Of a stretch of 64,000 nt of DNA, positions 15,384-63,675 are shown one piece after another. Each line of letters opens with the position of its first letter. The first letter of the stretch is position 1. The stretch lies in assembly GCF_026210795.1 (NCBI RefSeq), contig NC_089430.1:5332001-5396000 (forward strand), given 5' to 3'. The notes beneath the pieces were generated by a model, which was given only the letters and a program-made list of their open reading frames with translations, ran no database searches and was not told the DNA's origin. Source of the stretch: Rhizophagus irregularis. Its lineage: Eukaryota. The position numbers and the translations under genes were made by a program.

Positions 15384-17464
15384 TTATAATATTTGTTCGA
15401 AACTTTTTCTGGGCTTATTAAATTCGATACTTTGAACCTAAAAAAAACAATATATTGAAAATGAATAATAAGCAAAATCAATCATTAACCATATTAATAT
15501 CTAATTGAGAAATATCAATTTGTAAAGATTCTATTTAATAAGTAAAAATTTATTAGTTAATATCTTTTAAAACTAATTTACATTTTAAAAACGAAATTAT
15601 TAAACGATACCTGAAAATTTCTCACTAATTATATTATCATTTTGTTCATAATAATCGTCAGAATTTTTTGGTTCGGGAAGATTATTAAAATCAAGTAATC
15701 TACTTGTATAAATAGCTTCTGAATGTGTATTATATGATATTCCTAAATTATTTGAAGTTATACCGCTATTTGACGAATTATTGTTTATTTCATCTGCTTC
15801 CTTAATTTGTGCTTGTAATTCTATTGTTTGTTTATCATTTGGTTCATATTGCCATCTAAGTAAAATATTGTATATGTCTTCTGCTGTTGGTCGATTTAAC
15901 GGATTAGAGTCTAAGCATTTTTTAATTAAGTGCACAATTAATTGCGGCACTTTAATGTTAAACCTTGGTCTAATTCCTTTGCAAACTTTTATTGCTAAAT
16001 TATTATCATGGTTTAAATCATGATATGGGGGTAATCCAGAAATTACTTCATACATTACTATACCAAAACTATAAATATCGGCAGCTGTTGTATAATTTTG
16101 TCCTCTTAAAATTTCAGGAGCTATATAAGGTAAAACACCATATTTCTTATTTTTCGTATTTTCTGATGTATAACAATCTGCAGGCTTACATAATCCCATA
16201 TCAGTTATAGTAGTTTTATTTTTAAACTTTAATATATTTCCAATATGTAAATCTCGATGAATTAATTCCTTTTCATGAATACATTTAAGTCCAATAATAG
16301 TATAATGTAAATATTTAAACATTTCAATCCAATTAAGCTTATTATATTCTTTATCTAAATAATTTCGTAAACTTCCATCTTCTGCATATTCTAAGACCAT
16401 TATATAATTTTTCGTTTTTGGATCCTGAGTTATTCCATATAATCTGACAATTGCATTATTATCCATTTTCACTTTATTATGAAGCATGATCTATGATGTA
16501 AATGTAAAAATACAAAATATATTAGTAAAACCAACAATCTAGGTATTATGATCAAAAATATTATACTAAATTAATCAAATTATACCTCATTCATAAATCC
16601 TAATGTAACATTTTTTGAATTGTCTAAACTTTTCAGAGCTACAAACATATCTTTATTATATCTTTTCCAATTTTGGTTACTATTATCCCAACCAGCTAAA
16701 TAACCATCAATCCAATTTGCTCTATATACTTTACCAAACCCACCTTTTGCAGTATATATAATATCATAAAATCTATCATGAGGTATCCATTCTAAAGCAT
16801 TTGTAAATAGTTCAATATTATTATGTATTAATAGCTGACTGTCTTGAATAAATATATCAATATCATCATTACCACTGGTCCAATTTTCAAAATTTTGTTG
16901 AAAATGCATTGCATAACATGTATAATTACATTTTTTACATATAGTATTATTCATCAAAACCATCATGTAACTTTTTGTTTCTGGATCTTGAGTTATTCCA
17001 AAAGGTATATTAATCTACAAATACAAATATATTAGTAGAAATTAAAAATTTCAAAATTTAATTCATTATCATACCTCATCCATAAGTTTTATTCTAATAT
17101 TTTTTAAATTATTTAAACTTTTCAGAATTACATTTTTACTTCCATATCTTTTCCAATTTTTATTTTTATTATTCCAACAACTTATATTTCCATCAATCCA
17201 ATTTGCTTTATACACTTCACCAAATTCATCTTCTGCAATATATTTAATATAATACAATCTATTATAGGGTATCCATTCTAATGCTTCTTTTAAATCATTA
17301 TGAGATGATAGCTGAGTATCTTGAATAAATTTGTCAATATCATTATTACCACTAGTCCAATTTTTGAAATTTTGTTGAAAACGTATTACGTAACATATGC
17401 GATTACATTCTTCACATTTCTTGACATGTGATAAATTAGTTGTTTCCTTAATACCTAAATCCAT
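15384..17464 (-). CDS. TKL-type protein kinase with 2 N-lobe repeat exons (kinase gene 1, ~597 aa)
   Basis: Exons 17464-17075, 17014-16586, 16490-15611, 15530-15490 and 15437-15384 splice in frame through GT-AG introns. Motifs: KGGFGKVY, VALK, HRDLHIGNIL, DMG, APE, DIYSFG. Confidence 0.88.
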
Positions 17465-23025: not shown

Positions 23026-26000
23026 TAGTGTTTCGATCCGGATAGAAACCGTTATCCGGATAAATTAAAAAAATTATCCGGTTTTTATCCGGATAATCCG
23101 GTTCGGATAAAAATCCGGATATATCCGGATAGAAACCGAAATCCGGATAAAAATTATACAATTTTTTTTTTGTAAATCAAGAAATTTATAGCATATATTA
23201 GATTTAATTCATAGCATAGATTTAATTAAATTCGTGGCATTTTGATTAATTTTGTGGCTTAAATGTGTGGCTTTGTTAATTAGTTTCGTGGCACCTATTT
23301 AAATAATTTCGTAGAATTTATTTAATTAATTTTGTGGCTTAAATTTATGGCTTTATTTAATTATTTTCGTGGCATTTGCTTAATTAATTTCGTAGTGTTT
23401 ATTAGTTTAATATCATAGTATTTTCTTAATTAATTTTGTAATTAACTTCATTTATGTCTTTGTTTAATTATTTTCGTGGAATTTGTTTAATTAATTTCGT
23501 ATTATTAATTTCATGGAATTTATTAAATTTGTAGCAATAAAATTTTGTAAAATTTTACAATATTAATCAGGTAAATTTATTATTTAGACCTATTGATTTA
23601 TGACAATTATTATTTGTTTATTAAAACTTTTACAAATAAAATCACAGTTAATTCAGTTCTAACTTCTAAGCCATAATAAAGATTAATAAATACTGTACAT
23701 TCCCTTGTTGAATTTTTCATAATTTCAATTAAAGTTTATTTTATTGAAAGCTAAAATAATTCACAAAATTATGGAAAATAACAATGATCAAGATTACATT
23801 ATTACCTTAAGTGAAAATGAAGGTTCTAGTGATGAAATTGTTGAAATTACTCCAACACCACTAGCAAAGCAAAAAAGAGGACGTCCTGCAAAATTATCTA
23901 AAGCCCTTGGAAAACAAAAAATGACAAATACTACACTAGAATCAACAGATCGAGCACCAAATGATTCAAATCCCTTTAAACAAACTGCTGCAATAATTAA
24001 ACCACAAACAAAAGTAAGTTGGGTATGGGATTATTTTATTAAAAAACAAAATGATAAAGGAGAAATACGTGCATATTGTCAGTTTTTATTAGATGATGGA
24101 GAAAAATGCTCAAAAAATTACAAATATGATGGGTCTACAGGAAATCTCAGTTACCATCTTGTTAAACATGGAATTATACCACCTCTAGAAAGCGGCATTA
24201 TATCACCAATGCATACTCAATCTGCATCCAATAAAAATGGACAAAAAGAAAAAGAATTATCAACACTACGGTGGATTTTACTTACAACTCAACCATTATC
24301 AACCATAACTCAAAAGGCATATATTGAGCATATGTATATTATAGATCCACAATTTACAGTTCCTGGAGAAAAAAAATTAAGAATGATGATTGCTCGCAGT
24401 TATGGGTATAATAAAGAAAAATTGAAACTGCTTTTAAAAACTGCTCAATCAATATCTTTAACTACTGATTTGTGGTCTTCTCGTTCAAAACATGGATATT
24501 TAGGCTTAACAGCAACTTGGATCAATAAAAATTTTGAAATAATGGATGTTTTGCTTGAAATATCCTATTTTCCAACACCACATACTGCAAAAGCAATTAC
24601 TGAAGGTATTAAAAATGCTATGCAAAAGTGGGAAATTGAAAATCTTGTTGTATCAATAACAACAGACAATGGAGCAAATGTAGTAGCTGCTATTCGAGAT
24701 TTAACACCAATTAAAAGACTCTCATGTGCTGCTCATACTTTGCAGCTGGCAATTAGTAAAGGATTAAAAGTTGTAGAAAATTTGGTATCACGTACAAAAC
24801 AACTAATAAATTTTTTTTCTACTCAAAAACAAATTGAACGATTGATTAAAGTGCAAAAAGAGATTGGTTATGAAGAACCATTACATTTAATACAAGATAT
24901 ATCTACTAGGTAAATATTTTAATTCAATTTAATTATTTAATAAATTTTATCCTAATTTATATAATTATTGTTGTTTAATTACTTAAGGTGGAACTCTTCA
25001 TATTTGGCATGGGATCGGCTGATTTTTCTTCAATATGCTGTGCTTCAACTTAGTGTAAACTTGTCTTGTTCTCTTATATCTGAAGAAAAAACTGATGGAA
25101 TTAGATTAAAAAAAATTATGATAAAAGATAATGAATGGGAGTTATTAGATGAATTATGTAACATTTTGGCACCATTTGAGAAAGCTACACGAGATTTTTC
25201 TGGAAATACTTATGTTACATTAAGTCAAATGTTTCCTATTATTACAGATCTCACAAATTCTTTAAAACCATCTGATAATTCATATGAAGTATTAGAAGAT
25301 TCTGATGATAATACTATTAATTCTGATATAGTAGAAGAAGAAAGTTCACAAATTGAAGTAGATTATAGTAATATTTCAGAAGTATTAAAAAATGTAAAAA
25401 ATAAAATTTATTTAGGTTTGAAACATTATTGGGCAATGCCAGATGAGTTTGGCATTATGGCAGCACTTTTGGATCCAAGGTATAAAGATCTTAATTTTAT
25501 AACTGATGAAGAAACAAAAGTAAAAATTCATTCAAGTTTACAAATACAATATGATCAATTAAAGAGAGAAATGCAGCAACAAACTAGTACTCCACCATCA
25601 CCCACAATTTCAACAATTTCAACTACCTCAACAAGTTCAACTCCTAGCATGAGATCTTTACATGAGCATCAAGAAAGACGTCAACAAAAAGTAAAAAAAG
25701 TGTTTCAAACAAAAGAAAGTTCTACTTCATCATCAGCAATAGCTGATGAAATTACTACTTATTTTCTTTTACCAGTTGCTAGGGAAAATAAAAACCCATT
25801 AGATTGGTGGAAATCAAAACAGGAAATTTTTCCAGTTCTTTCTATTATTGCACGAAAATATTTAGGAATTCCTGCTACTTCTGTAGCTTCTGAACGACTT
25901 TTCTCAGATGCAGGAAACCACATTACAGCAAAAAGAAGCTTATTGGATCCTGCTTTATTAGGTAAAATGGTATTTTTAAAACGTAACATGAAAACTATGG

Positions 26001-26460
26001 ATCATATTAATATATTTCCACCAGATTTGGATGTGGAAAATAATGATTATGTGGAAGATGAACACGAATTGGAAGAATTATTAGATGAATGATATTACAT
26101 TTTTCATTATTATTTTTATTAAATGTATTGAATTTTATTCTATTAAATATTTTTTATTAAATGTATTGAATTTTATTTTATTAAATAAAGAATTTTATTA
26201 TAAGAATATTTACATGTTTTTAATTATTAAATTATTCTATCATATACTTTGAAATAAAAATGAAAATTAAAAGAACTATTATTTAAGATATTTAATATTA
26301 AAAAATTTTTTTTTTTATATTTTTTATCCGGATACCGGATCTGACCCGGATATTTTTATCCGGATAATTATCCGGATAAAAACCGCGTTTATCCGGATAT
26401 CCGAAAAAAATAAATTATCCGGGTCCAACCGGTTGGACCCGGTCACGGATCGAAACACTA
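23026..26460 (+). mobile_element. Complete hAT-superfamily DNA transposon (3,435 bp)
   Basis: Perfect 15-bp TIRs TAGTGTTTCGATCCG (23026-23040) and CGGATCGAAACACTA (26446-26460); perfect 8-bp TSD GAGATGTA (23018-23025 and 26461-26468); many subterminal ATCCGG(AT) motifs at both ends. Confidence 0.97.
23771..26092 (+). CDS. hAT transposase with BED zinc finger and C-terminal dimerisation domain (~747 aa, two exons)
   Basis: Exons 23771-24909 and 24988-26092 (78-bp GT-AG intron) rebuild STRWNS. Motifs: AT-hook-like KRGRP, BED-like WDYF..C..C..HLVKH, TTDLW, TTDNG, CAAH, LDPRYK, PLDWWK, PATSVASERLFS. Confidence 0.95.
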
Positions 26461-29300: not shown

Positions 29301-32300
29301 ATTCATTGCTTATTATATTATCATTTTGTTCATAATAATCATCAGAATTTTTTGGTTCAGGAAGATTATTGAAACTGAGCAATCTACTTGTATAAATAGC
29401 TTCTGAATGTGTTTGATATATTCCTAAACTAGTTGAAGATATATTTTTATTTGATGAATTGTTTATTTCATCCGCTTCTATAATTTGTGCTTGTAATTCT
29501 ATTGATTCATCATATTGCCATTTATGTAAATCATGTAAAATATCTTGTGCTTTTGGCCTATTTAATTGATTTGCATCTAAGCAATTTTTAATTAACTGGA
29601 TAATTAATTTTGGCACTTTAATATTAAACTTTGGTCTAAGTCCTTGACAAATTTTTATTGCCAAATTTTCGTCATGATTAATATCACAATATGGAGGTAA
29701 TCCAGAAATTAATTCGTACATAATTATACCAAAACTGTAAATATCCGCAGCTTTTGTATAATTCTGTCCTCGTAAAATTTCAGGAGCTATATAGGGCAAA
29801 ATACCATATATATTATTTTTTTGTATATCACAATTTGCAGGTTTACACAATCCCATATCAGTTATAGCAATTTTATATTTAAATTTTAATATATTGCTAA
29901 TATGTAAATCTCGATGAATTAATTCCTTTTCATGAATAAATTTAAGTCCAGATATAATATCAAATAAATAATTGATTATAATACTCCAATTAAATTTATC
30001 ATAATTTGTGTTCAAAAATTTTCGTAAACTTCCATCATTTGCATATTCCAAAACCATTACATAATTTTTTGTTTCTGGATTTTGAGTTATTCCATAAAGT
30101 TTTATAATCCTAAAATCACCATTTAATTTATGATGTAATATCACCTGCATAATAAAAGATAAAAAATTTAATATATTAAAAGGATAAATTGAAATTTTAT
30201 TGAATAAAAATTTATTTATACCTCATTCATAAATTCCAATGTAATTTTTTTTGAATCATTTAAACTTTTTAAAGCTACAAACATATTTTTATTATATCTT
30301 TTCCAAATTTTATTTTTATCATCCCACTTACTATCTAACCGTCCATCTATCCAATTTGCTTTATATACTTTGCCAAATCCACCACTTGCTATGAATTTGA
30401 TATTACAAAATTTACTATAAGGTATCCATTCTATCACATCTGTTATATTATTATGAGTTAATAACTGAGTATCTTGAATAAACTTATCAATATTATTATT
30501 ACCACTGGTCCAGTTATTAAAATTTTGTTGAAAGTATATTGTATTACATATCTCATTGCATTTTTTACATATATTATTCAAAACCATCATGTAATTTTTT
30601 GTTTCTGGATCCTGAGTTATTCCAAAAACTTTTTTAATCTGCAAATATAAATATGTTAACAAAAATTAAAAATTACAAAATATATTAAATGATAGATTAT
30701 ACCTCATTCCTGAATTCCTCTGCAATATTTTTTGAATCATTTAAACTTTTTAGAATTACAAACATATTATTTGCTCTTTTCCAATTTTGATTTGTATTAT
30801 TCCAATAACTTATATATCCATCAATCCAGATAGCTTCATATTCTTTGCTAAACCCTGCAATATATTCAATATTACAAAGCCTATCATAAGGTATCCATTC
30901 TATTACTTCTGTTGTATTATTATGAGCTGATAACTGAGAATCTTGGATAAATTTATTAATGTCATTATCACTGGTCCAATTTTCAAAATTACGTTGAAAA
31001 TATATTGAATTACACATATTATTGCATTTTTCACATATATCATCCAAAACTATCATATAACTTTTTGTTTCTTGATTTTGAGTTATTCCATAAAATACAT
31101 GATTCATTTTAACCTACAATATAATAATATATTAAAAAATTAAAATATTTGTAATTTTAATAATAACAAACTTACTATACCTTATTTATAAATTCTAATG
31201 TAAGATTATTTGGAGTATTTAAGTCCTTCAAATTCACAAACATATTAAAACCTTCTCTTATCCAATTTTGCTCATTATCATTCCAATAACTTATTTTTCC
31301 ATCAATCCAATTTGCTCTATACACTTTGCCAAACTCATCATCTGCAATATATTTAATATTATATAATCTATTATAAGGTATCCAATCTAACACTTCCTTT
31401 ATATCTTTATGAGCTGATAGTTGAGTATCTTGAATAATTTTATTTATATCTTTATTACCACTAGTCCAATCCATGAATTTCCGTTGAAAGTAAATGGTAT
31501 TACATATTTTGTTGCATTTTTCACATTTATCATCCAGAACTATCATATAATTCTTTGTTTCCAGATCCTGAGTTATTCCATATAATTCATGATTTATTTT
31601 AATCTAAAGTTAAATTATGTATTAGAAAAACAAAATTTTATAATTTTGGTGAGTAACAAATTTATTATACCTTATTTATAAATTCTAATATAAGATTATT
31701 TGGAGTAGTATTCAAGCTCTTCAAATTCACGAACATATTACAACCTTCTCTTTTCCAATTTTGCTCATCATCATCCCAATAATTCATTTTTCCATCAATC
31801 CAATTTGCTATATATATTTCTTTATCAATATATTTAATATTGTACAATCTATATAAGGTATCCATTCTAGTGTTTCTTTTATATCATAATGAGCTGATAT
31901 TTGAGTATTTTGAATCAACTTATCAATATCTTCATTACCACTAGTCCAGTCCATTAATTTTCGTTGAAAGTAAATGGCATTACATAACTTATTGCATTTT
32001 TTGCATATATTATTCAAAACCATCATGTAATTTTTTGTTTCTGGATCTTGAGTTATTCCAGAAGCTTTTTTGATCTACAAATATAAACATGTTAACAAGA
32101 ATTAAAAATCTCATAAATATATAAATAATTAGATACCTCATTGTTGAACTCCAATGCAACAATTTCTGAATTATCTAAACTTTTTAGAATTACAAGTGTA
32201 TTATGACCTACTCTTTGCCAATTTTTTTTATAGTTATTCCAATACTGTATACATCCATCAATCCAATTAGCTTTATATTCTTTGCCAAACCTTCCATTTA

Positions 32301-40327: not shown

Positions 40328-43300
40328 TTAATTAGTATTTAATTGTGGGAGATCAAATCGTAAAGATTCTATTTAGTAAATTAAAAAATTTGTTATTATC
40401 CTTTAAATTTTAATTTGCATTTTTAAAACAAATAATATATTATTAATTAATACCTGAAAATTCTATGCTTGTTATATTATCATTTTGTTTGAAATAATCA
40501 TCAGAATTTTTTGGTTCAGGAAGATTATTAAGATTAAGCAATCTACTTGTATAAACAGCTTTGGAATGTGTTTCATATGATAAACTAATAGCTGGTAAAG
40601 TATTATTGATTTCTTCTGCTTCTTTAATTTGCTTTCCTATTTCTGATTGATCACTAGAACACCAATCTTGTAAAATTTTAAAAATTTCATGTGCTTCTGG
40701 TCGATATAAAGGATTTGCATCTAAACACTTTTTAATTAATTGCACAATTAATTGGGGTACTTCAATACCACTAAAACATGGTCTAAGTCCTTGACAAATT
40801 TTTATTGCTAAATCATTATCATGGCTTAAATCATAATATGGAGGTAAACCAGAAACTATTTCATACATAATAATACCAAAACTAAAAATATCAGTTGCTT
40901 TGGTATAATTTCGTCCCCTTAAAAGTTCAGGAGCCATATATGGTAAAACGCCATATATTTCGTTCTCTGCATTTTCTGATACAATATAATTTGCAGGTTT
41001 ACATAATCCTATGTCAGTTATAGTAGTATCATCATATTTAAGTTTTAGTATGTTGCCAATATGTAAATCTCGATGGATTAATCCCTTTTCATGAATATTT
41101 TTGAGTCTACTTATAATATTATATATATAAACTACCTTTTTGTTCCAATTTAATTTACTATATTCTTTATCTAAATAATTTCGTAAGCTTCCATTTTCTG
41201 CATAATCTAAAACCATCATATAATTTTTTGTTTTAGGATCCTGAGTCATTCCATAAAGTTCAATGTTGAAGTTATTGTCTATTTTCTTTTTATTATGCAA
41301 AACAAACTATATGAAAATAAAAATACACATATATTAGTTAAATTAACAATATAAAGTATCTTAATTATAAATCAGTGTGATTAAAATATACCTCATTTAC
41401 AAATTCTGATGTAATGATTTCTGAATTGTTAAAGCTTTTCAAAATTACAAACATATTTTCATTATATCTTTGCCAACTTTTACTTTCATCATTCCATTTA
41501 TGTATTCGTCCATCAATCCAATTTGCTCTATACACTTTACTAAATCCACCTTTTGCAATATATTTTATATCATAAAATTTATTATAAGGTATCCATTCCA
41601 ACACTTTTTTATATACTCCTTCATAGTTATTACAACGCATCGATGATATTTGTGTATTTTGAATAATTTTATCAATATCTTTATTGCCACTTGTCCAATT
41701 TTCAAAATTTTGTTGAAAGTGTAATGCATCATACATACAATTACATTTTTTACATTTGTTATTAAAGACTATCATATAATTCTTTGTCTCTGGATTTTGA
41801 GTTATTCCATAAATTTCATAATCTATTTTAAACTAAAAAAATATATAATATATCAGTAAAATTAAAATCTTTTAAAATTTCATTAACAGTTAAGTAATTA
41901 TTCAATTATACCTTATTTATAAATTCTGATACAATAGATATTGAATTATTGAAGCTTTTTAGAATAACAACCACATTTTGATTCTTTCTACTCCAATTTC
42001 CATTTTCGTAATTCCAACTATGTATATTTCCGTCATACCAATTTGCTTTATATATTTTAATTTCTGAAATATATTCAATATTATAAAATTTATCATAAGG
42101 TATCCATTCCAATACTGCTTCTACATTATTATGAACTAATAGCTGAGTATCTTGAATAAATTTATCAATATCACTATTACCACTAGTCCAATTATCAAAA
42201 TTTTGTTGAAAGAGTATTGCATAACATACACAATTACATTTTTTACATTTATTATTTAAGACAATCATGTAATTCATAGTTTCTGGATCTTGAGTTATTC
42301 CATAAAACTTGTAACCTATTTTAACCTAAAAAAAATAGCATATTTGTATCAGTAAATTATAATCTTTTAAATTCCATTAAATCATGAGTTATTATACCTC
42401 ATTTATAAATTCTAATGTAATATGTTTTGGACTATTTAAATCATTCAGATACACAATCATATTTTGGTTTGTTCTCTTAATATCATTACTATTAACCCAA
42501 TAATTGATAATATGTCCATCATACCAATTAGCTTTATATACCATCTTGCCAAACATGCTTTCTGAAATATGTCTAATATTATAAAATCTATCAAAAGGTA
42601 TCCATTCTAATGCTTTACTTGCATAATTATGATCTGATAGCTGGGTTTCTTGAATAGCTTTATCAATATCATGATCACCACTAGTCCAATTTTCAAAATT
42701 ATTTTGAAAATATATTGCATTACATACATGATTACATTTTTTACATTTATCATTCAAAACCATCATATAATTTTTTGTTATTGGTTCTTGAGTTATTCCA
42801 TAAATTCTATTAACCTATAAATATAATTTATTAGTATAATTAAAATCATTTAATCTTTTAAAATTTACATTAAATAATAAATTAGGCACCTCATTCATAA
42901 TTTCTAATTTAATATGTTTCGACTTATTTAAGCTTTTTAGTATCACAATAAGTTTAGGATAATTTTTTCTTCTCCAATTCTGATTTACATAATCCCAATT
43001 CCATATATATCCATCAATCCAATTTGCTTTATATGTTTTGACAGAACTGCTTTCTAAAATGTGCTTAATATTATAAAATCTATCATTAGGTATCCATTCT
43101 AATGTTCCTTCCACATTATCATGAGCTGATAGCTGAGCATCTTGAATTAATTTATCAATATCATTATCTCCACTAGTCCAATTATCAAAATTTTGTTGAA
43201 AGTGCATTGCATTACATATGCTATTGCATTTTTTACATTTAGTATTCAAGACCATCATGTAATTCTTTGTTTCTGGATCCTGGGTTATTCCATAGACAAC

Positions 43301-44319
43301 ATAATCTATTTTAATCTAAAATATAAATATATTAGTAAAATCAAAAATTTCAAATTTTTATTATTACTGCATAATATACCTCATTCATAAATTCTAATGT
43401 AATATTTTTTGACTTATTTAAGTCTTTTAGTTCTACAATCATATTTTGATATTTTCTTTTCCAATTATGATTTTCACAATCCCAATACCATAAATATCCA
43501 TCATACCAATTTGCTTTATGTATTTCACCAAACCTACTTTCTAAAATATGCTTGACATTATAAAGTCTATTATAAGGTATCCATTCTAATATATCTAATA
43601 CTCCATATTTAGTATGATCTGATAACTGAATATCTTGAATAAAATTATCAATATAATTATCACCACTAGTCCAATTTTCAAAATTTCGTTGAAGATGTAT
43701 TGCGTTACATATAAAATTACACTTTTTACATTTATTATTTAAAACCATATAATATAAATTTTTTGTTTCAGGATCCTGAGTTATTCCATAAAATTCACTA
43801 TCTATTTTAACCTATAAATAATAATATATTAGTAAAAATAAAGATCTCAAAAAAAAAAAAAAAAAAAATTTAATAATAATAAATTATTAATTATACCTCA
43901 TTCATAAAATTTAATGTAAGATTTTTTGAATTATTTAAAGTTTCCAGATTTACAAACATATTTTGATAATTCCTTTTCCAACTTTCATTATGATGATCCC
44001 AGTATAGTATACGTCCATCAATCCAATTTGCTCTATAAATCTTACCAAACTTACCTTTCGCAATATATTTTATGTCATAAAATCTATTATAGGGTATAAA
44101 TTCTAACGCTTCTTCTGTATTATCATGAGCTGATAGTTGTGTATCTTGAATAAATTTATCAATATCATTGTCGCCACTAGTCCAATTTACAAAATTTCGT
44201 TGAAAGTGTATTGAATTACATGTATTATTACATTTTTCACACATCACATATAATTCATTAATATGTGATGATGATTCCTTAGTAGTTAGCTTATTAATAT
44301 CTTTGATAAAAGAATTCAT
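40328..44319 (-). CDS. TKL-type protein kinase with 6 N-lobe repeat exons (kinase gene 3)
   Basis: Six homologous exons (ORFs from 43891-44319 to 41365-41775), kinase exon 40443-41300 (HRDLHIGNIL, DIG, APE) and a last mini-exon ESLRFDLPQLNTN* ending at 40328. Confidence 0.85.
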
Positions 44320-49609: not shown

Positions 49610-50030
49610 TACAGTTTTTCTGTATAAAACTCAAAATTGGTATTCTAAATCTAACTTTTAAGATTAATTAAAGTTGTAGACCTAATAAAGTTATACATAA
49701 TTACAAATTTACAGACTTATGTAATGAATGGATAAGTCTCACACCTTAATTTCGTGCTTAATTTTAACGATTTTAACAGTTTATCTATGTATGACTCAAA
49801 AACGGCATTCTAAATCTACTTTTTAAGATTAATTATATTTGTAGCCCTAATAAAGTTACATTTAATTGCAAATTTACAGACTTTACGTAATAAATGAATA
49901 AGTCTCCCGCCTTAATTTCGTGCTTAATTTTAATGATTTTAACAGTTTATCTATGTATAACTCAAAATTAGCATTCTAAATCAAACTTTTAAGATTAGTT
50001 AAATTTGTAGCCCCGATAAAATTACATATA
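49610..50030. repeat. ~165-bp tandem repeat, ~2.5 copies
   Basis: ACTCAAAA..G(C/T)ATTCTAAATC recurs at ~49629, 49794 and 49960, with matching downstream sequence. Confidence 0.8.
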
Positions 50031-50104
50031 ATCCTTGCATTTGGGATCTCTTTAATTAATAGCTCCAGAAATATTAAAAAAGTTCATAAAAGTCAAGAAA
50101 GTTT

Positions 50105-53100
50105 CTTTGCTGAAACCTATCGATTTTGAAAAATATGGTAGAAACATTTTTAAAATATGATCACCATATTGCATACGTATTTCTGTTAACTCTGTTGTAA
50201 CTCGATAACAGTAATATGTTAAGCATATGTCAAAAATATGAAATAAAAATATGTCTAGAATATGTTAAACATCAATCAAAAATATGATGAAAATATGTAA
50301 TAGGAATGTTTTTATTATATATCAAAAATATGTTGGAAATATGTAATAGGGATGTTTTCATTATATATCAAAAATATGTTGGAAATATTATAAATCAATT
50401 TATTAAAATAATCAAAAATTTAATTACATGTATACAATATCATATGGCACAAATGTTTCTCTCATCTATCAAAAAATTTAAAATACTATATAATTCTTAA
50501 TAATATTATTATCCATACCAATACCGCATTATAATAAAATATAACATCGATTTCCTTCATTATGCTCAGTATTATGTATTCCTACAATTGTGATAAAGAA
50601 TAAACGTGGAATGTGATCAACCAAGGTAATTGGAAAATTTTGAAACCACCGTAGTGATTCTTTAGCCTTCTATAAAATAAATATAAATAAAATGTTAATA
50701 TTATTTCATTAATAAAAAAATAGCTAAATAAATTAAGTTTTTAAAATCAAAACTTACCATCCAATCCACTCAAGAACCAGAATCCATTTCCTATAAAAAA
50801 GAGGAAAAGTTAAATATTATTTAAAAAAATTTAATTTTGAAATAATTTAATTTCAAAATTTTGAACTCACCATCCGATCAATTGGAAATCCATCCTATAA
50901 AAAAAAAAAGAAAAAAACAGTAATCACAATTTTTTATCATTTTCGAATTTATTTTCCCAAAAGTTTACCTTCATCTACTAATTTCGCACAATCCGAACAA
51001 TATAAAGACCAGTTATCATACTGGGAACTCTGATAATTGAGTCAAAGGAAAACATAAAATAAAAGAAGACGCTACTGTAATTAAACATCTTTCACAAGAG
51101 TTCTAAAGATAGGAGTCCTACTAAAGAAATAATTTTCAAAAATATTTTTGATACTCACTTGGGAATCTGGTGTCTACATCCGTCAGAGCTGATTTCCCTA
51201 CAAAAAAAGAAAAAATGTAAAAAAAAATTTTTTTCTTTAAAATTTTGAATTCCTATTTTCGAAACTTACAATCTTTGAGATTTCAGTTTTCCAAGTCGGA
51301 ACTGATTGAAAAAAAAAATGATAAAAAGTTTTTTTAAAAGTTTTGAGTTCAACTCGCCATTATCTAGAATTCCAGCTTTCAAGTCAGAGCTAATTTCCTA
51401 CAAAAATCAAACAAAAATAAGTTTTAAAAAAACTTTTCTTTAAAGTTTCAAATTTCTGTTTTTGAAACTTACCTATTCTACGCATCCAAACTTGTCTAAA
51501 AATATGAAAAAACAAGGCCAATTTCTTACTGAAATCCTAGTATCCAAGCCGTTTAAAAAAAAAAGCATTTTAAAAGACGAAATAGAGAAATTTTTTTAAA
51601 AAAACCAAAATCCATATCCAAAGAACTAAAAAGTCGCTTAAAAGAGAAAAGAAACAGAACATTAATAATTATTTCATTAAAGAGATAGGCCAGAAACATT
51701 CCTCTTACCAAAATCCTTGTCCAAAAATATTCAAAGAATACTGAAATTTACATCTGTCTAAAAAAAAAGAAAAAAGTGAGAAAAAGGGAAGTACATGAAA
51801 GAGAGATAGGGAAAAAATGAAAAGAGGGAAAGGGAAATTATAAAAGAGAGGGAAAGGGGGAAAATGAGAGAGGAAAGTTTACCAAAAAAAAGTTTATGCC
51901 GAAAAAAGTTTAACTTTTTTTTAAACTTTAACTTTAGACTTTTTTTAAAGTTATACTTTTTTTTAAAAAAAAGTGATATTGTTATATTGCTAATATTAAA
52001 TCACATGACGCGAATTTATTACAATAAGTTTGTATAACCGAAAATTTGAACTTTTTTTTCCCACTTAAAATACTTATTTATATAAACTTTTTTCCTTTTT
52101 TTTCACACTTTTTTTTCCAACTTTCTATAACCTAAAAATTTTTTCTTTCCTATAGAAATATTATTATTTTAGTAAAAGCTTTTTTTCAATGGAAGAACCA
52201 TTTATAAAGGAACCAGAAAGTATTATATAGTACATGAAAATTTTGGTTTTCTTTTTACTTTTATTTTTTTGATAAAGTATTACGTTTTACTACTAAAAAA
52301 AAAATATATAATAAATCTTTTATCAGAAAATGGCCCATATTTTATATTGTGAGTCAAAATAAAGTCATTCAAAGGATTTGTGGCTGATATTGTTATATTA
52401 TCATGTTTGGCTATGGGTAGCTTTTCTCTTTAGATGGATCTAGATGCGTAAAATTTGGTTGGTATATTGATCGTATCGGCTGTAATTTTCCCGGGATCAT
52501 CTGTACAAGTCACTGTTATGCAAATCAATTGATATCATGTGATTATAAACAAAAAAAGAAAGTATTTTTTTTTTATTTAATTTGATTGTTTACTAATTGC
52601 TCATTTATCTATTTTATTTTTTTAGGATACATTTTATTAGCGGTGCAAACATTCTGGATTTATTAGTATAAAGTATAAACAGACTTGTTAGAGGTCATAA
52701 GCTATCCCACCAGCTGGCAAAGTGTATGAAATTTCTTTTAATTCACAAAGAAAGCCTTGCTAAAGTCATCTTTAGTGTAGGTCTAGTAATACATTGCCTT
52801 AATTGAGCGTGGCTACGAAGTTTATGATTTTTAAATATATATTATATATCAATATTGATATCTTATGTTTGATTACACAATTTATTTACTATTTAAATTA
52901 AATACATTTTTGCTATATATCAATAAATTAACAATAACGAGTGTCCTTATTATATTATTATAATGCATTTTAATAAATTAGTGTTATGATAAATGGCAAA
53001 GCTAATCAAGATTTATTTTTTAGCATTAGGTAAATTGAACACAATTTGTATTTTCGTTAAAAGGATAAAATTATAAATTTTTATTTTTATTTTTTTAAAA

Positions 53101-53667
53101 AAAAATCATATTATTTAAAATTAAAAAAATTAAGGTTTCATATTGCCTTCATATAGCCAATATAAAGTAGTGATTTGGTAACTAAGACGAAAAAAATGCA
53201 CTAGCGATCAACCTTATAGTCACATGACAGTCACATGCTAGAAGCAGTTATTCATATAACAACAACATATTCAAAATATATTATTCATATATCAACAACA
53301 TATTCAAAATATATTGTTTGTATATCAACAACAGTATTCAAAATATGTTATTCATATATCAACAGCATACTTGAAATATATTAACAACATATTCAAAATA
53401 TTCATTATATCATTTGTTTAAGTACATGTTTTAACATACTTTGAAAATATTGTAAAATTATTTTATTCATATTACAAAAATATTTACTACACTATATTAG
53501 TTTAAGTTTAAATTTCAACATATATTAAAAATATTATAACATTATTTTATTAATATTACAAACATATTGCGTATATTAAAATATATAGAACATATATATA
53601 CCATCTGTTAGTAATATGTAGTGATTATGTCTGACATATTTTGTGAAAACCAGAGGTTTCTGCAAAG
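50105..53667 (-). mobile_element. Non-autonomous CACTA/CMC-like TIR element, copy 1 (3,563 bp)
   Basis: TIRs CTTTGCTGAAACCT and AGGTTTCTGCAAAG (13/14); TT(T) on both flanks; subterminal tandem repeats at ~50285-50390 and ~53250-53410; reverse complement of 59811-63377. Confidence 0.9.
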
Positions 53668-55280: not shown

Positions 55281-55575
55281 CCCTATAAAAAAAGAAAATT
55301 CAGAATTTGTCCTGAAAAGTATGGAAAATGTCCGGAAATTTTCCATGCGTCCGGAAAACATTCGGAAACGGTCATGTTTTGGAACATTTTCCGGACGCTC
55401 GATTCTGGACAAATTCTGGACAAATTCTGGAGTGTCAAGAAAATGTCTGGAATTTGTGCGTCTGGAAAGTGTTCCAAAACATGACCGTTTCCGAATGTTT
55501 TCCGGACGCACGGAAAATTTCCGGACATTTTCCATACTTCTCAGGACAAATTCCGAATTTTCTTTTTTTATAGGG
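55281..55575. mobile_element. Fold-back MITE with CCCTA termini (295 bp)
   Basis: CCCTATAAAAAAAGAAAATTC...GAATTTTCTTTTTTTATAGGG; arms complementary for ~115 bp; 3-bp TSD TCT (55278-55280 and 55576-55578); internal TCCGGA repeats. Confidence 0.9.
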
Positions 55576-55855: not shown

Positions 55856-58800
55856 TTATTCTATTCTAATTTTTTTTCTTTTACTCTCAGATTCGTCATT
55901 TTGACTTAAGAAACAATTTTTTCTTTTACTCTCTGATTCGCTGTTTTGATCTAAGAAAAAAAAAAATATTATATTAACTGTTAATTACGAATGAAAAAAC
56001 ATAAAGTTATTATAATTATTATGTAGAAATTAATATTTACTATCTTCTTCAATGTTCAATTGAGAAATATTGATTTGTGAAGATTCTATTTAATAAATTA
56101 AGACTTATTGTTAGTATTTTATGAACTAGATATTTTCAAAGTCATACATAAGTAAACTATTTACCGTTCTCATTAATATTCAATTGAGAAATATTAATTT
56201 GTAAAGATTCTATTTAATAAATTAAAGTTTATTATTAGTATTATATTGACTAAATATATTTAAAAAGCAGCAATTAATAAATATTTAATTAATACCTGAA
56301 AATTCCTTGCTTATTATATTATCGATTTGCTCATAATAATCAACAGAATTTTTAGGTTCAGGAAGATTATTGAAACTAAGCAATCTACTTGTATAAATAG
56401 CCCCTGAATGTGATTTATATGATATTCCCAAGCTAGTTGAAGGCTTAATATGAACTCGTGAATTGTTATTTATTTTTTCTGTTTCTTTGATTTGTTTCTG
56501 TAATTCAACTGTTTCATTATCACTTTCTTTATATTGCCATTTGCGTAAAATATTAATAACTTCTATTGCTGTTGGTCTATTTAGTTGATTTGCATCCAAA
56601 CACCTTTTAATTAACTGAACAATTAATTGGGGCACTTTAATATTAAATCTTGGTCTAAGTCCTTGACAAATTTTTATTGCTAAATAATTGTCATGGCTTA
56701 AATCATAATATGGAGGTAATCCAGAAATTAATTCATACATATTTATACCAAAACTGTAAATATCTGCAGCTTTTGTATAATTTTGTCCTCCTAAAATTTC
56801 AGGAGCTATATAAGGTAAAATACCATATATATTATTTTTTGATAAATTACAATTTGCAGGTTTACACAATCCCATATCGGTTATAGCAACATTATTTTCA
56901 TGTTTCAACATATTACCGATATGTAAATCTCGATGAATTAATTCCTTTTTATGAATAAAATTAAGCCCAGATACAATATCATCTAAATGTCTAAATATAC
57001 TTTTCCAATTTAATTCATAATATTTTATGTCCAAATATTTCCGTAAACTTCCATCATTTGCATATTTCAAAACCATTACATAATTTTCTGTTACTGGATC
57101 TTGAGTTATTCCATAAAATTTTGTAATTCTAAAATCATCATCTACTTTATGATGTAACATCATCTATATATAAAAGGTAAAAAAATAACTGATATTAAAA
57201 GTATAAATTGAAATTTTTTGAATAAAAATTTATTCATACCTCATTCATAAATTCTAATGTAATGTTTTTTGAATCATTTAAACTTTTCAAAGCTACATAC
57301 ATATTTTTATTATACCTTTTCCAAAGTTGATTTTTATCATCCCAATAACTTATATTTCCATTAATCCAATTTGCCTTATATACTTTACCAAATCCACCTC
57401 TTGCAATATATACAATATTACAAAATTTACTATAAGGTATCCATTCCAATGCATGTGATATTTCACTATTTTTATGAGCTAACAACTGAGTATCTTGAAT
57501 AAACTTATCAATATCCTTATTACCACTAGTCCAATATATAAATTTTCGTTGAAAGTATATTGAATTACATGCATAATTACATTTTTCACATATGTCATTC
57601 AAAACAACTATATAACTTTTTGTTTCTGGATCCTGAGTTATTCCATAAAATTCACGATTTATTTTAATCTATAATGTAATAATATATTAGAAAATTAAGA
57701 TTTTTATAATTTTGTTAAGTAATAGCTTATCAGTACTTTACCTTATTTGCAAATTCTAATGTAAAATTAATTGGATTATTTAAACTTTTCAAAATCACAA
57801 ACATATTAAGATTCCCTCTTTCCAATTTTTCATTTGTATCATTCCAACTAAATATTTTTCCATCAATCCAATTTGCTTTATACACTTTACCAAATTTATT
57901 TTCTTCAATATGTTTAATATTATACAAACTATCATAAGGTATCCATTCTAGTGCTACACTTATATCATAATGAGCTGACAGTTGTGTATCTTGAATAAGT
58001 TTATCAATATAATTATTGCCACTGGTCCAATTTTTGAAATTCCGTTGAAAGTATATTGAATTACAGGTATAATTGCATTTTTCACATATATCATCCAAAA
58101 CAATCATAAAGTTATTTGTTTTTGGATCTTGAGTTATCCCATATAATGTATGGTTAAATTTAATCTACAAATATATTAATATATTATTAGTAAAAAATAA
58201 TAGATTTTAAAATCTGTGCATAGTAATGAATCAATAAAGTAAATACCTCATTTATAAATTCTAATGTAAAATTAATTGGATTATTTAAACTTTTCAAAAT
58301 CACAAACATATTAAGATTCTTACTTTTCAATTTTTCATTTGTATCATTCAAACTACATATTTTTCCATCAATCCAATTTGCTCTATACACTTTACCAAAC
58401 TTATTTTCTTCAATATATTTAAAATTATAGACTCTATCATAAGGTATCCACTCTAGTGCTCCTTTTACATCTTTATGAGATGAAAGTTGAGTATCTTGAA
58501 TGAGTTTATCAATATCATCATTACCACTGGTCCAATCTACGAATTTCTGCCCAAAGTAAATGGCATTGCACAATTTATAGCATTTTTTACATTTATTATT
58601 CAAAACCATCATATAATCGTTTGTTTCTAGATCCTGAGTTATTCCATAAAATTCATTGTTTCTTTTGATCTACAATGTAATAATATGTTAAAAAAATAAA
58701 GTTTTTAAAATTTTGTTAAGTAATAAGCTTATCAGTATACCTTAATTGCAAATTCTAATGTAAGATTATTTGGATTATTTAAAATATTCAAATTCACAAA

Positions 58801-61800
58801 CATATTATGATTCTTTCTTTTCAATTTTTCATTTGTATCATTCGAACTACATATTTTTCCATCAATCCAATTTGCTCTATACACTTTACCAAACTTATTT
58901 TCTTCAATATATTTAAAATTATAGAGTCTATTATAAGGTATCCACTCTAGTGCTTCTTTTACACCTTTATGAGATGATAGTTGAGTATCTTGAATAAGTT
59001 TATCAATATCATCATTACCACTCGTCCAATCTATGAATTTATGTTGAAAATAAATTGCATTGCACAATTTATAGCACTTTTTACATTTATTATTCAAAAC
59101 TATCATATAATTTTTTGTTTCTAGATCCTGAGTTATTCCATAAAATTCATTATTTATTTTAATCTACAATGTAATAATATGTTAGAAAAAATAAAGTTTT
59201 AAAATTTTGTTAAGTAATAAGCTTATCAATATACCTTATTTGCAAATTCTAATGTAAGATTATATGGATTATTTAAACTATTCAAATTCACAAACATATT
59301 ATGATACTTTCTTTCCAATTTTTCATTTGTATCATTCCAATTACATATTTTTCCATCAATCCAATTTGCTCTATACATTTTACCAAGCTTGTTTTCTTCA
59401 ATATATTTAATATTGTACAATCTATCATAAGGTATCCATTCCAGTGCTTCCTTTGCATCACAATGAACTGATAATTGTGTATCTTGAATAAGTTTATTGA
59501 CATCATTATTACCACTGGTCCAATTTTCAAAATTATTTTGAAAGTGTATTACATTACATACATTATTACATTTTTCACATATATCTTTCAAAACGATCAA
59601 GTAATTCCCTGTTTCTGGATCTTGAGTTATTCCATAAAACTCATGGTCTTTTCTAATCTACAAATATGAAATATGCATAAATTATTATTAGTAAAGATAA
59701 TAAATTTCACATTCCGTGTATAGTAATGAATCAAATAAAATACCTTATTTATAAATCCAAATTTAACATTTTTTAAGTTATTTAAACTTTCCAGCTTTAC
59801 AACCATATTTCTTTGCAGAAACCTCTGGTTTTCACAAAATATGTCAGACATAATCACTACATATTACTAACAGATGGTATATATATGTTCTATATATTTT
59901 AATATACGCAATATGTTTGTAATATTAATAAAATAATGTTATAATATTTTTAATATATGTTGAAATTTAAACTTAAACTAATATAGTGTAGTAAATATTT
60001 TTGTAATATGAATAAAATAATTTTACAATATTTTCAAAGTATGTTAAAACATGTACTTAAACAAATGATATAATGAATATTTTGAATATGTTGTTAATAT
60101 ATTTCAAGTATGCTGTTGATATATGAATAACATATTTTGAATACTGTTGTTGATATACAAACAATATATTTTGAATATGTTGTTGATATATGAATAATAT
60201 ATTTTGAATATGTTGTTGTTATATGAATAACTGCTTCTAGCATGTGACTGTCATGTGACTATAAGGTTGATCGCTAGTGCATTTTTTTCGTCTTAGTTAC
60301 CAAATCACTACTTTATATTGGCTATATGAAGGCAATATGAAACCTTAATTTTTTTAATTTTAAATAATATGATTTTTTTTAAAAAAAATAAAAATAAAAA
60401 TTTATAATTTTATCCTTTTAACGAAAATACAAATTGTGTTCAATTTACCTAATGCTAAAAAATAAATCTTGATTAGCTTTGCCATTTATCATAACACTAA
60501 TTTATTAAAATGCATTATAATAATATAATAAGGACACTCGTTATTGTTAATTTATTGATATATAGCAAAAATGTATTTAATTTAAATAGTAAATAAATTG
60601 TGTAATCAAACATAAGATATCAATATTGATATATAATATATATTTAAAAATCATAAACTTCGTAGCCACGCTCAATTAAGGCAATGTATTACTAGACCTA
60701 CACTAAAGATGACTTTAGCAAGGCTTTCTTTGTGAATTAAAAGAAATTTCATACACTTTGCCAGCTGGTGGGATAGCTTATGACCTCTAACAAGTCTGTT
60801 TATACTTTATACTAATAAATCCAGAATGTTTGCACCGCTAATAAAATGTATCCTAAAAAAATAAAATAGATAAATGAGCAATTAGTAAACAATCAAATTA
60901 AATAAAAAAAAAATACTTTCTTTTTTTGTTTATAATCACATGATATCAATTGATTTGCATAACAGTGACTTGTACAGATGATCCCGGGAAAATTACAGCC
61001 GATACGATCAATATACCAACCAAATTTTACGCATCTAGATCCATCTAAAGAGAAAAGCTACCCATAGCCAAACATGATAATATAACAATATCAGCCACAA
61101 ATCCTTTGAATGACTTTATTTTGACTCACAATATAAAATATGGGCCATTTTCTGATAAAAGATTTATTATATATTTTTTTTTTAGTAGTAAAACGTAATA
61201 CTTTATCAAAAAAATAAAAGTAAAAAGAAAACCAAAATTTTCATGTACTATATAATACTTTCTGGTTCCTTTATAAATGGTTCTTCCATTGAAAAAAAAG
61301 CTTTTACTAAAATAATAATATTTCTATAGGAAAGAAAAAAATTTTTAGGTTATAGAAAGTTGGAAAAAAAGTGTGAAAAAAAAGGAAAAAAGTTTATATA
61401 AATAAGTATTTTAAGTGGGAAAAAAAAGTTCAAATTTTCGGTTATACAAACTTATTGTAATAAATTCGCGTCATGTGATTTAATATTAGCAATATAACAA
61501 TATCACTTTTTTTTAAAAAAAAGTATAACTTTAAAAAAAGTCTAAAGTTAAAGTTTAAAAAAAAGTTAAACTTTTTTCGGCATAAACTTTTTTTTGGTAA
61601 ACTTTCCTCTCTCATTTTCCCCCTTTCCCTCTCTTTTATAATTTCCCTTTCCCTCTTTTCATTTTTTCCCTATCTCTCTTTCATGTACTTCCCTTTTTCT
61701 CACTTTTTTCTTTTTTTTTAGACAGATGTAAATTTCAGTATTCTTTGAATATTTTTGGACAAGGATTTTGGTAAGAGGAATGTTTCTGGCCTATCTCTTT

Positions 61801-63675
61801 AATGAAATAATTATTAATGTTCTGTTTCTTTTCTCTTTTAAGCGACTTTTTAGTTCTTTGGATATGGATTTTGGTTTTTTTAAAAAAATTTCTCTATTTC
61901 GTCTTTTAAAATGCTTTTTTTTTTTAAACGGCTTGGATACTAGGATTTCAGTAAGAAATTGGCCTTGTTTTTTCATATTTTTAGACAAGTTTGGACGCGT
62001 AGAATAGGTAAGTTTCAAAAACAGAAATTTGAAACTTTAAAGAAAAGTTTTTTTAAAACTTATTTTTGTTTGATTTTTGTAGGAAATTAGCTCTGACTTG
62101 AAAGCTGGAATTCTAGATAATGGCGAGTTGAACTCAAAACTTTTAAAAAAACTTTTTATCATTTTTTTTTTCAATCAGTTCCGACTTGGAAAACTGAAAT
62201 CTCAAAGATTGTAAGTTTCGAAAATAGGAATTCAAAATTTTAAAGAAAAAAATTTTTTTTTACATTTTTTCTTTTTTTGTAGGGAAATCAGCTCTGACGG
62301 ATGTAGACACCAGATTCCCAAGTGAGTATCAAAAATATTTTTGAAAATTATTTCTTTAGTAGGACTCCTATCTTTAGAACTCTTGTGAAAGATGTTTAAT
62401 TACAGTAGCGTCTTCTTTTATTTTATGTTTTCCTTTGACTCAATTATCAGAGTTCCCAGTATGATAACTGGTCTTTATATTGTTCGGATTGTGCGAAATT
62501 AGTAGATGAAGGTAAACTTTTGGGAAAATAAATTCGAAAATGATAAAAAATTGTGATTACTGTTTTTTTCTTTTTTTTTTTTTATAGGATGGATTTCCAA
62601 TTGATCGGATGGTGAGTTCAAAATTTTGAAATTAAATTATTTCAAAATTAAATTTTTTTAAATAATATTTAACTTTTCCTCTTTTTTATAGGAAATGGAT
62701 TCTGGTTCTTGAGTGGATTGGATGGTAAGTTTTGATTTTAAAAACTTAATTTATTTAGCTATTTTTTTATTAATGAAATAATATTAACATTTTATTTATA
62801 TTTATTTTATAGAAGGCTAAAGAATCACTACGGTGGTTTCAAAATTTTCCAATTACCTTGGTTGATCACATTCCACGTTTATTCTTTATCACAATTGTAG
62901 GAATACATAATACTGAGCATAATGAAGGAAATCGATGTTATATTTTATTATAATGCGGTATTGGTATGGATAATAATATTATTAAGAATTATATAGTATT
63001 TTAAATTTTTTGATAGATGAGAGAAACATTTGTGCCATATGATATTGTATACATGTAATTAAATTTTTGATTATTTTAATAAATTGATTTATAATATTTC
63101 CAACATATTTTTGATATATAATGAAAACATCCCTATTACATATTTCCAACATATTTTTGATATATAATAAAAACATTCCTATTACATATTTTCATCATAT
63201 TTTTGATTGATGTTTAACATATTCTAGACATATTTTTATTTCATATTTTTGACATATGCTTAACATATTGCTGTTATCGAGTTACAACAGAGTTAACAGA
63301 AATACGTATGCAATATGGTGATCATATTTTAAAAATGTTTCTACCATATTTTTCAAAATCGATAGGTTTCAGCAAAGTTTGATGCCTTATCCAATCTCGT
63401 TTATATATACTCCAACGAAATATACATCCATCGATCCAATTTGCTTTATACACTTTACCAAACTTGTTTTCGTCAATATATTTAATATCATCCAGTCTAT
63501 GATAAGGTATCCACTCTAGTGCTACTTTTACATTTTTATGAGATAATAATTGAGTGGCTTGAATGAGTTTATCAATATCATTATTACCACTAGTCCAATC
63601 TATGAATTTATGTTGAAAATAAATTGCATTGCACAATTTATAGCACTTTGTACAATTATTATATATTTCGGCCAT
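55856..63675 (-). pseudogene. TKL-type protein kinase with 6 N-lobe repeat exons (kinase gene 4); exon 1 interrupted by a 3.57-kb transposon
   Basis: Exon 1 starts MAEIYNNCTKC at 63675, breaks at 63378 and resumes at 59810 (NMVVKLESLNN). Five more repeat exons lie at 59660-57239, then kinase exon 56285-57163 (HRDLHIGNML, DMG, APE) and three tail exons ending ESKRKKIRIE* at 55856. Confidence 0.85.
59811..63377 (+). mobile_element. Non-autonomous CACTA/CMC-like TIR element, copy 2 (3,567 bp), inserted in kinase gene 4
   Basis: TIRs CTTTGCAGAAACCT and AGGTTTCAGCAAAG. Removing the element plus a 2-bp TT duplication restores the kinase frame WIRHQNMVVKL. Confidence 0.93.

What the first reader, a model, noticed from the sequence alone, without database searches (positions are those of the whole stretch)
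15384..63675. Cluster of kinases carrying variable-length tandem arrays of kinase N-lobes (2, 10, 6 and 6 modules)
Seen: each internal ~140-aa repeat exon reads YGITQDPETKNYM(M/I)VL - CxxCxxxC - FQ..F.(N/D)WTSGN.DIDK.IQ - EWIPY - (Gly-loop)FGKVY(K/R)ANWIDG - V.LK.L - EF.N(E/K). The YGITQDP..KNY.MVL segment is the same one that opens the catalytic exon. Knowledge: FGKVY/VALK/EF.NE are kinase beta1-beta3 plus alphaC, and YG...Y.MVL(EY) is beta4-beta5. Inference: after splicing, the protein is a chain of complete N-lobes with no C-lobes, spaced by Cys linkers, ending in one full kinase. The array could act as a decoy/sensor or autoinhibitory scaffold, loosely analogous to pseudokinase sensors in plant tandem kinases or repeat-based non-self receptors. 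I know of no description of an N-lobe-only repeat, but I could not search.
Basis: partly seen in the sequence, partly recalled or inferred. Interest (0 to 1): 0.88.

Follow-up and report, generated by a model that had tools for sequence, protein, structure and literature searches.

The report
Kinases carrying chains of N-lobes
Four neighbouring genes of a root-symbiotic fungus each place one complete protein kinase behind a chain of 1 to 9 extra copies of the kinase's front half, which keep their predicted fold but have lost the ATP-binding motifs and likely act as protein-binding baits; the same design recurs in several genera of these fungi, and two of the four genes here are broken.

Summary
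Confirmed, with corrections. Four minus-strand Rhizophagus irregularis kinase genes carry 2, 10, 6 and 6 modules, counting the one that forms the kinase's own N-lobe. They are joined by 24 short phase-0 introns. AlphaFold models of the database protein matching gene 3 fold each junction-spanning unit as a kinase N-lobe (best match MLKL, Z 9.8, rmsd 2.5 Å). Across 126 related proteins the Gly-loop survives in 121 of 126 terminal units but 13 of 467 upstream units, while the fold core is conserved (ω 0.52). Similar arrays occur in Acaulospora, Ambispora, Racocetra and Gigaspora. Gene 2 has a frameshift and gene 4 a 3.57-kb insertion. One public run shows spliced junctions, but no full-length mRNA was seen, and no positive selection was detected. 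Closest precedent: the single partial-kinase decoy of wheat RWT4/WTK3. Eight literature searches found no description of the array. Function is inferred: bait/sensor 0.4, regulatory scaffold 0.25, tolerated by-product 0.25. The scan earlier noted tandem kinase front ends in another fungal genome, read there as non-coding.

The parts
15384..17464 (-). Gene 1: two modules (17464-17075, 17014-16586) plus catalytic exon (16490-15612) and small 3' exon(s); intact; 3' end approximate
   Evidence: matches P0315, 583 aa
28686..34984 (-). Gene 2: ten modules plus catalytic exon 30144-29296 and a triplicated 3' exon pair; frame broken in module 7
   Evidence: allele P0276
31671..32074 (-). Gene 2 module 7, with a 1-nt deletion near 31852
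   Evidence: 404 nt; contig record 12 of run X2 covers 31812-31985 with no gap; allele P0276 reads through this site
30222..30638 (-). Gene 2 terminal module: GGFGK Gly-loop, VALK, alphaC Glu; forms the catalytic N-lobe
40328..44319 (-). Gene 3: six modules (44319-43897, 43811-43380, 43315-42890, 42814-42398, 42325-41912, 41832-41392) plus catalytic exon 41306-40455 and a 3' exon; intact
   Evidence: P0017 matches exon by exon; folded
56051..63675 (-). Gene 4: six modules plus catalytic exon 57163-56297; first exon interrupted; 3' end approximate
59811..63377 (.). 3,567-bp non-autonomous element with imperfect terminal inverted repeats, flanked by T runs, inserted in exon 1 of gene 4
   Evidence: 99.7% identical to 50105-53667; ends; no ORF over 75 codons

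Best explanation
These genes encode kinases with one complete catalytic domain preceded by a variable chain of ATP-site-degenerate units that are predicted to fold as kinase N-lobes and likely serve as protein-binding baits that control their own kinase. Shown in sequence: the repeat starts at the family's N-terminal Cys motif and ends at the hinge after beta5. It spans a phase-0 intron, so units can be gained or lost in frame. Shown by comparison: only the last unit keeps the Gly-loop, beta3 Ala-x-Lys, the long alphaC-beta4 segment and the hinge; upstream units keep the structural core under purifying selection. Predicted: each unit is a helical hairpin plus a five-stranded N-lobe with a beta2-beta3 hairpin insert. 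Inferred and untested: freed from catalysis, the extra N-lobes would present many diverged kinase-like surfaces. These would catch proteins that normally dock on or attack kinase N-lobes (from viruses, endobacteria, the plant or another fungal individual), and binding would switch the terminal kinase.
For: Fold: 2-unit model pLDDT 86.8. All 50 VIA rows listed are kinase domains, matching model residues 49-145 or 190-283 (MLKL Z 9.8, rmsd 2.5, 74 aligned; RIPK2 residues 8-97, Z 9.5). Division of labour in 126 proteins and 593 units: GGF 121 of 126 terminal vs 13 of 467 upstream; ALK 115 of 126 vs 28 of 467; core W, I, Q, E-W-I, A-x-W and G at 94-99% in upstream units. Hinge xYA after beta5 in 106 of 115 terminal vs 1 of 380 upstream; beta3-to-beta4 distance 36 vs 27 residues. 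Selection: omega 0.52 on 18 upstream exons, 2dLL 53 against omega=1, core 0.25-0.3; 0 stops in 22 exons against about 28 expected in my simulation. 103 of 126 kinases keep catalytic Asp, DxG, APE and beta3 Lys. Arrays vary faster than catalytic lobes: in 29 paralog pairs, C-lobe 88%, terminal unit 77%, upstream units 68% identical, and unit number differs in 22. The same layout occurs in four other genera. Precedent: the RWT4/WTK3 partial kinase duplication binds a fungal effector directly (passages).
Against: No class of sites with omega above 1 (2dLL 1.4, no site with posterior above 0.8), although only 18 paralogous exons were tested. No ligand or partner is known. Two of four genes here are broken, and only 51 of 83 kinase-bearing hits have all units full length. 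A chromosome-level annotation models only the last 223 and 151 residues of genes 2 and 3 (P0277, P0274). Two polyA RNA runs gave a mean depth under about 2 per strand over the two genes and no intron junction. N-lobes generally vary more than C-lobes (established knowledge), and unit counts come from unverified gene models. The full-length model has pTM 0.47, so it says nothing on array-kinase contact.
Confidence: 0.4

Rival explanations
1. The extra N-lobes are built-in regulatory modules for the fungus's own kinases. They would dock on the terminal kinase or on paralogous kinases through ordinary N-lobe dimer or lobe-swap surfaces, setting autoinhibition or scaffolding, with no foreign ligand involved.
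For: Purifying, not positive, selection. The best structural matches (RIPK2, MLKL, JAK2 pseudokinase, Roco4) are kinases regulated through N-lobe contacts (established knowledge). Lone lobes can act in trans: baculovirus PK2 is a C-lobe mimic that binds the PKR N-lobe (review passage). The kinome has about 2,500 members (passage).
Against: One or two modules would suffice for autoinhibition, yet unit number runs from 2 to 10 and differs in 22 of 29 close paralog pairs. About a third of sites evolve near neutrally.
Confidence: 0.25
2. The arrays are a tolerated by-product. In-frame duplications of an intron-spanning unit arise easily in a repeat-rich genome, and selection only keeps the frame open and the units foldable so that the downstream kinase is still made.
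For: Omega 0.52 overall and 0.94 in the beta2-beta3 hairpin. Two of four genes are broken, and the other-strain allele of gene 2 carries different lesions. The 3' exon pairs of genes 2 and 4 are also tandemly duplicated. These kinase families are enriched in methylated, transposon-rich regions (passages). The region holds many mobile elements.
Against: The unit ends at the same place, the hinge, in all lineages read. Core residues are as conserved upstream as in the catalytic unit. Arrays cluster by lineage, which suggests repeated origin or continued upkeep. An 8-unit array is kept at 98-100% identity across five records.
Confidence: 0.25
3. The modules are alternative cassettes. Exon skipping would splice different N-lobes onto the same C-lobe and give many kinase isoforms.
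For: All introns are phase 0 at the homologous position, so any skip is in frame; skipping module 7 would bypass the frameshift in gene 2.
Against: Upstream units lack the Gly-loop and beta3 Ala, so the products would be catalytically impaired. The one module-to-catalytic junction seen in run X2 does not identify its module.
Confidence: 0.07
4. The loci are decaying pseudogenes or non-coding transcripts, and no array protein is made.
For: The lesions in genes 2 and 4; short models in one annotation; very low RNA depth in runs X23 and X24.
Against: Open frames far beyond chance, omega significantly below 1, gene 3 intact with six units in two strains (30 differences in 1,134 residues), and in-frame spliced junctions. 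It can hold for single copies such as gene 2, but not for the family.
Confidence: 0.03

Closest known systems
Wheat RWT4/WTK3 integrated partial kinase duplication (KDup / pseudo-kinase fragment)
   Same: A duplicated N-terminal part of a kinase, fused in front of its parent kinase, without a full active site. It binds the effector AvrPWT4 directly (10.1101/2024.04.30.591956 and 10.1101/2024.08.30.610185; passages seen).
   Different: One copy, described as a short helix and a beta-sheet, in a plant tandem kinase with a second kinase domain and an NLR partner, with dN/dS near 1. Here there are 1-9 complete predicted N-lobes, one kinase, fungal, omega 0.52, and no known ligand.
Expanded PF07714 (tyrosine-kinase-like) family of arbuscular mycorrhizal fungi
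   Same: The catalytic domain scores PF07714 above cut-off. The expansion is described in PMC6123716, PMC8647823 and 10.1101/2022.10.19.511543 (passages). One-unit relatives carry the same Cys-WTSG-EWIPY extension (P0322).
   Different: Pfam sees one kinase stretch and nothing above cut-off in the array. Database names are Ypk1p, kinase-like or hypothetical. None of the passages read mentions the repeat.
Pseudokinase-kinase fusions (JAK JH2-JH1, plant tandem kinases)
   Same: A catalytically dead kinase-derived domain in front of an active kinase; the JAK2 pseudokinase N-lobe is a top fold match (Z 9.4).
   Different: Those pseudokinases have both lobes. Here no C-lobe sequence lies in the repeat.
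Baculovirus PK2 (C-lobe-only kinase mimic)
   Same: Shows that a single kinase lobe can act as a regulator by binding the other lobe (PMC6467004, review passage).
   Different: The opposite lobe, viral, single copy, acts in trans.

Membership tests
Eukaryotic protein kinase, PF07714/PF00069 (terminal domain) | Profile score above the curated cut-off over the whole domain | tested here: met
   P0017 residues 794-1062 cover profile 5-257, 135 bits vs cut-off 23.1; P0315 156 bits
Eukaryotic protein kinase, PF07714/PF00069 (terminal domain) | Catalytic motifs: Gly-loop, beta3 Lys, catalytic Asp, DxG, APE | tested here: met
   HRDLHxxN, D[MI]G and APE in P0017, P0315, P0009; 103 of 126 proteins carry Asp, DxG, APE and Lys
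Eukaryotic protein kinase, PF07714/PF00069 (terminal domain) | Phosphotransfer activity | not testable with these tools
   needs an in vitro assay
Kinase N-lobe fold (upstream units) | Five-stranded sheet plus alphaC, superposable on solved N-lobes | tested here: met
   Predicted model only; Z 9.8-6.2 to kinase N-lobes in 50 of 50 listed rows; Foldseek E about 1e-3, all listed rows kinases
Pseudokinase | Two-lobed kinase fold lacking catalytic residues | tested here: not met
   Upstream units have no hinge or C-lobe (hinge in 1 of 380); one catalytic loop per protein
Plant tandem kinase proteins | Two kinase or pseudokinase domains in one chain | tested here: not met
   Pfam finds one kinase stretch in P0017, P0276, P0268
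Integrated decoy (KDup-like) | Degenerate duplicate of the protein's own kinase front end | tested here: met
   Upstream units group with terminal units of their own lineage; ATP motifs lost
Integrated decoy (KDup-like) | Direct binding of a foreign effector that triggers signalling | not testable with these tools
   No ligand is known
Integrated decoy (KDup-like) | Diversifying selection on the binding surface | tested here: inconclusive
   No support for omega above 1 in 18 paralogous exons; beta2-beta3 hairpin omega 0.94; no allele DNA was available

The most novel reading that the evidence does not exclude
Arbuscular mycorrhizal fungi have repeatedly turned the kinase N-lobe into a repeat domain and use a large family of such kinases as polymorphic intracellular receptors. 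Each array is a reshuffleable panel of kinase-shaped baits wired to its own catalytic output, a functional counterpart of the repeat sensor in NLR-type receptors, built from the kinase itself.
Probability: 0.3. Interest if true: 0.92.

Novelty: new variant of a known kind. Interest (0 to 1): 0.72.

Why it matters
The kinome of this fungus has about 2,500 members and no agreed explanation. This finding shows that part of it has a hidden repeat architecture that Pfam does not register. It adds a new repeat unit, a lone kinase N-lobe, that is predicted to fold without its C-lobe, and gives structural biologists a natural test of lobe autonomy. It also makes a sensor hypothesis for these kinases testable, because the arrays can be expressed, swapped and used as baits. 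If the decoy reading holds, wheat and these fungi converged on partial-kinase baits.

Tried and rejected
No whole genome was held, so no genome-wide count or cross-strain DNA comparison was possible. Pfam on six single module exons gave nothing above cut-off. A profile of 22 module exons found no solved structure by sequence. Foldseek on the full-length model returned only whole-kinase hits. The ESM Atlas returned only clusters whose commonest phylum is Mucoromycota, and held no model for a structure search. No RNA holder was listed on record for gene 2. Raw RNA runs X23 and X24 were too shallow to show junctions. Run X1 reads through introns and was treated as DNA. The far side of the three X2 contigs that stop at gene 2 donors was not displayed, so their partner exons remain open. 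An Ambispora array query found only 2 other proteins, both Rhizophagus. The Diversispora two-unit protein P0258 and the two-C-lobe proteins P0316, P0317 and P0322 contain identical duplicated text and were dropped as probable gene-model or assembly artefacts. P0028 follows gene 2 for five and a half modules and then switches sequence; it may be a misassembly and was not counted as recombination. IQ-TREE's omega of 0.41 had kappa at 1.0 and was replaced by my own fit with free kappa. Literature searches aimed at this architecture listed no paper describing it. The library lacks most subscription journals, and I saw no supplements; domain tables in genome-paper supplements could bear on novelty.

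Full report
OBSERVATION. A six-frame scan shows four minus-strand groups of module ORFs, each ending in an exon with HRDLH. Donor and acceptor mapping gives 2, 10, 6 and 6 modules and 24 phase-0 introns of 60-95 nt, each placed after the alphaC N-(E/K) codons. The counts include the terminal module, so the N-lobe-only units number 1, 9, 5 and 5. Gene 2 has a 1-nt frameshift in module 7. A contig of run X2 covers the site without a gap, so it is unlikely to be an assembly error. Exon 1 of gene 4 is split by a 3,567-bp element with a 99.7% identical inverted copy nearby. Genes 1 and 3 are intact.

IDENTITY. One module found 560 longer proteins among 731 candidates; the 120 listed are all Rhizophagus. 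P0017 (R. irregularis, 1,138 aa) matches gene 3 exon by exon. P0315 matches gene 1, and P0276 is another strain's allele of gene 2 (reading the RhiirA5 tag as strain A5 is recalled). Pfam sees one kinase stretch per protein and nothing above cut-off in the arrays.

FOLD. P0017 was folded with a 100-row alignment: mean pLDDT 81, pTM 0.47, and the same element order in all six units. A two-unit piece (residues 448-730, no C-lobe) gave pLDDT 86.8 and pTM 0.68. Against 48,161 solved chains, all 50 listed rows are kinase domains, aligned to one unit or the other: MLKL Z 9.8 (rmsd 2.5, 74 residues), RIPK2 residues 8-97 Z 9.5, JAK2 pseudokinase Z 9.4, RIP3 residues 15-97 Z 8.0. Foldseek gave no match at E below 0.001, but its listed rows are all kinases. 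These are predictions. How the units pack on the kinase is unresolved.

DIVISION OF LABOUR. Of the 358 proteins stored at that point I kept the 126 with one catalytic loop and at least two near-full units (593 units). GGF is in 121 of 126 terminal and 13 of 467 upstream units; ALK in 115 and 28. The alphaC Glu is 96% terminal and 57% upstream, and the beta3 Lys stays at 86% upstream. Core residues are equally or more conserved upstream. The hinge follows beta5 in 106 of 115 terminal and 1 of 380 upstream cases, and the beta3-to-beta4 distance is about nine residues shorter upstream. The repeat therefore begins at the Cys motif and ends at the hinge, with the intron inside it. The Cys segment is CxxCxxxC here, CxxC..WCxxC in other arrays and in one-unit relatives, and absent in some. 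Metal binding is a guess from the motif.

SELECTION. Pairwise dN/dS over 231 exon pairs has median 0.52; the catalytic exons give 0.35-0.49. My codon-model fit on 18 upstream exons gives omega 0.52 (2dLL 53 against 1), 0.25-0.3 in the core and 0.94 in the beta2-beta3 hairpin. Allowing omega above 1 does not improve the fit (2dLL 1.4). A simple neutral simulation expects about 28 stops in the 22 unbroken exons, and none is seen (the two broken exons were left out). Gene conversion among units could bias these numbers.

DYNAMICS AND RANGE. The nearest neighbour of an upstream unit is another upstream unit of the same protein in 222 of 445 cases, adjacent in 127 of those. In 29 non-allelic pairs with C-lobes 85-97% identical, upstream units are 68% identical and unit number differs in 22. 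The allele P0276 has modules 9 and 10 fused in register, one period shorter, at an 11-base shared stretch. Near-identical records often keep their number (8/8, 6/6, 7/7), and where they differ the gene model may be at fault. A profile search found 3,197 cluster representatives; 150 were listed. Of 20 that I hand-picked for many units or unusual composition, 10 are Rhizophagus, 5 Acaulospora, 2 Ambispora, and 1 each Racocetra, Gigaspora and Diversispora (the last dropped as an artefact). In a midpoint-rooted tree of 194 units from 40 chosen proteins, upstream units group by lineage with that lineage's terminal units: Acaulospora 35 units (support 1.0), Ambispora 8 (0.91), Gigaspora 4 (0.89). 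This fits repeated origin or homogenisation; I ran no topology test.

TRANSCRIPTION. Run X2 (RNA is the tool's guess) has three contigs whose match stops at gene 2 donors: 30703, 32137 and 30220. The last is two bases past the donor, as expected because the next exon also starts with GT. Two joints in X2 link a module end to the start of a next exon with no intron and with in-frame letters between (15 and 36 bases, translated by hand). One is module-to-module and one module-to-catalytic; both come from paralogs. Only 15 of 65 joints were displayed. PolyA runs X23 and X24 had a mean depth under about 2 per strand over the genes and showed no intron junction. One chromosome-level annotation models only the C-terminal ends of genes 2 and 3. 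A full-length mRNA is thus likely for intact members but not shown.

MECHANISM. The data show a conserved fold, loss of the ATP site, an apparently competent terminal kinase, and fast turnover of units. The bait/sensor reading (0.4) explains multiplicity and variability, and has a direct precedent in the wheat RWT4/WTK3 partial kinase duplication, which binds its effector (passages of two preprints). It lacks a ligand and a signal of positive selection. A regulatory scaffold for the fungus's own kinases (0.25) and a tolerated by-product (0.25) remain live. Cassette splicing (0.07) and family-wide decay (0.03) are unlikely.

NOVELTY. The kinase expansion is known (passages), and the proteins sit in databases under generic names. 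Eight searches listed no paper on an N-lobe repeat; the library is incomplete and no supplements were read. A single partial-kinase decoy is known in plants, so I file this as a new variant of a known kind, with a repeat unit that I could not find described.

Noticed in passing
window 59811-63377 and 50105-53667: Two 99.7% identical copies, in opposite orientation, of a 3.57-kb non-coding element with imperfect terminal inverted repeats, subterminal 33-46-bp repeats and T-run flanks; recent mobility.
   Followed up: partly
window 28605-29333 and 56051-56287: The small 3' exon pair of gene 2 is triplicated (243-bp period) and that of gene 4 duplicated (124-bp period), giving repeated C-terminal tails.
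   Followed up: partly
window 23723-26089 (+): hAT transposase in two ORFs (hAT dimerisation domain E 1e-20, weak BED finger).
   Followed up: partly
window 2-2802 (-): Endonuclease-domain ORF of a probable LINE element, cut by the window edge, with a 336-codon ORF upstream.
   Followed up: partly
window 9142-10970, 48115-49559, 49611-50032: Satellite-like arrays: 173 bp x 10.5, 62 bp x 23.6 and 166 bp x 2.5.
   Followed up: no
window 55281-55575: A 295-bp self-inverted repeat (89%), MITE-like; database model P0055 reads into a 92% identical copy.
   Followed up: no
window 36500-37700: High-copy repeat between genes 2 and 3 that draws most of the RNA reads laid on this stretch.
   Followed up: no
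window 3691-6086 (+): Run of fragmented ORFs (158, 236, 101, 94 and 139 codons); the two tested have no Pfam match.
   Followed up: partly
proteins P0316, P0317, P0322, P0258 (Diversispora epigaea): Gene models with letter-for-letter duplicated halves, probably fused models or assembly duplications rather than true tandem kinases.
   Followed up: partly
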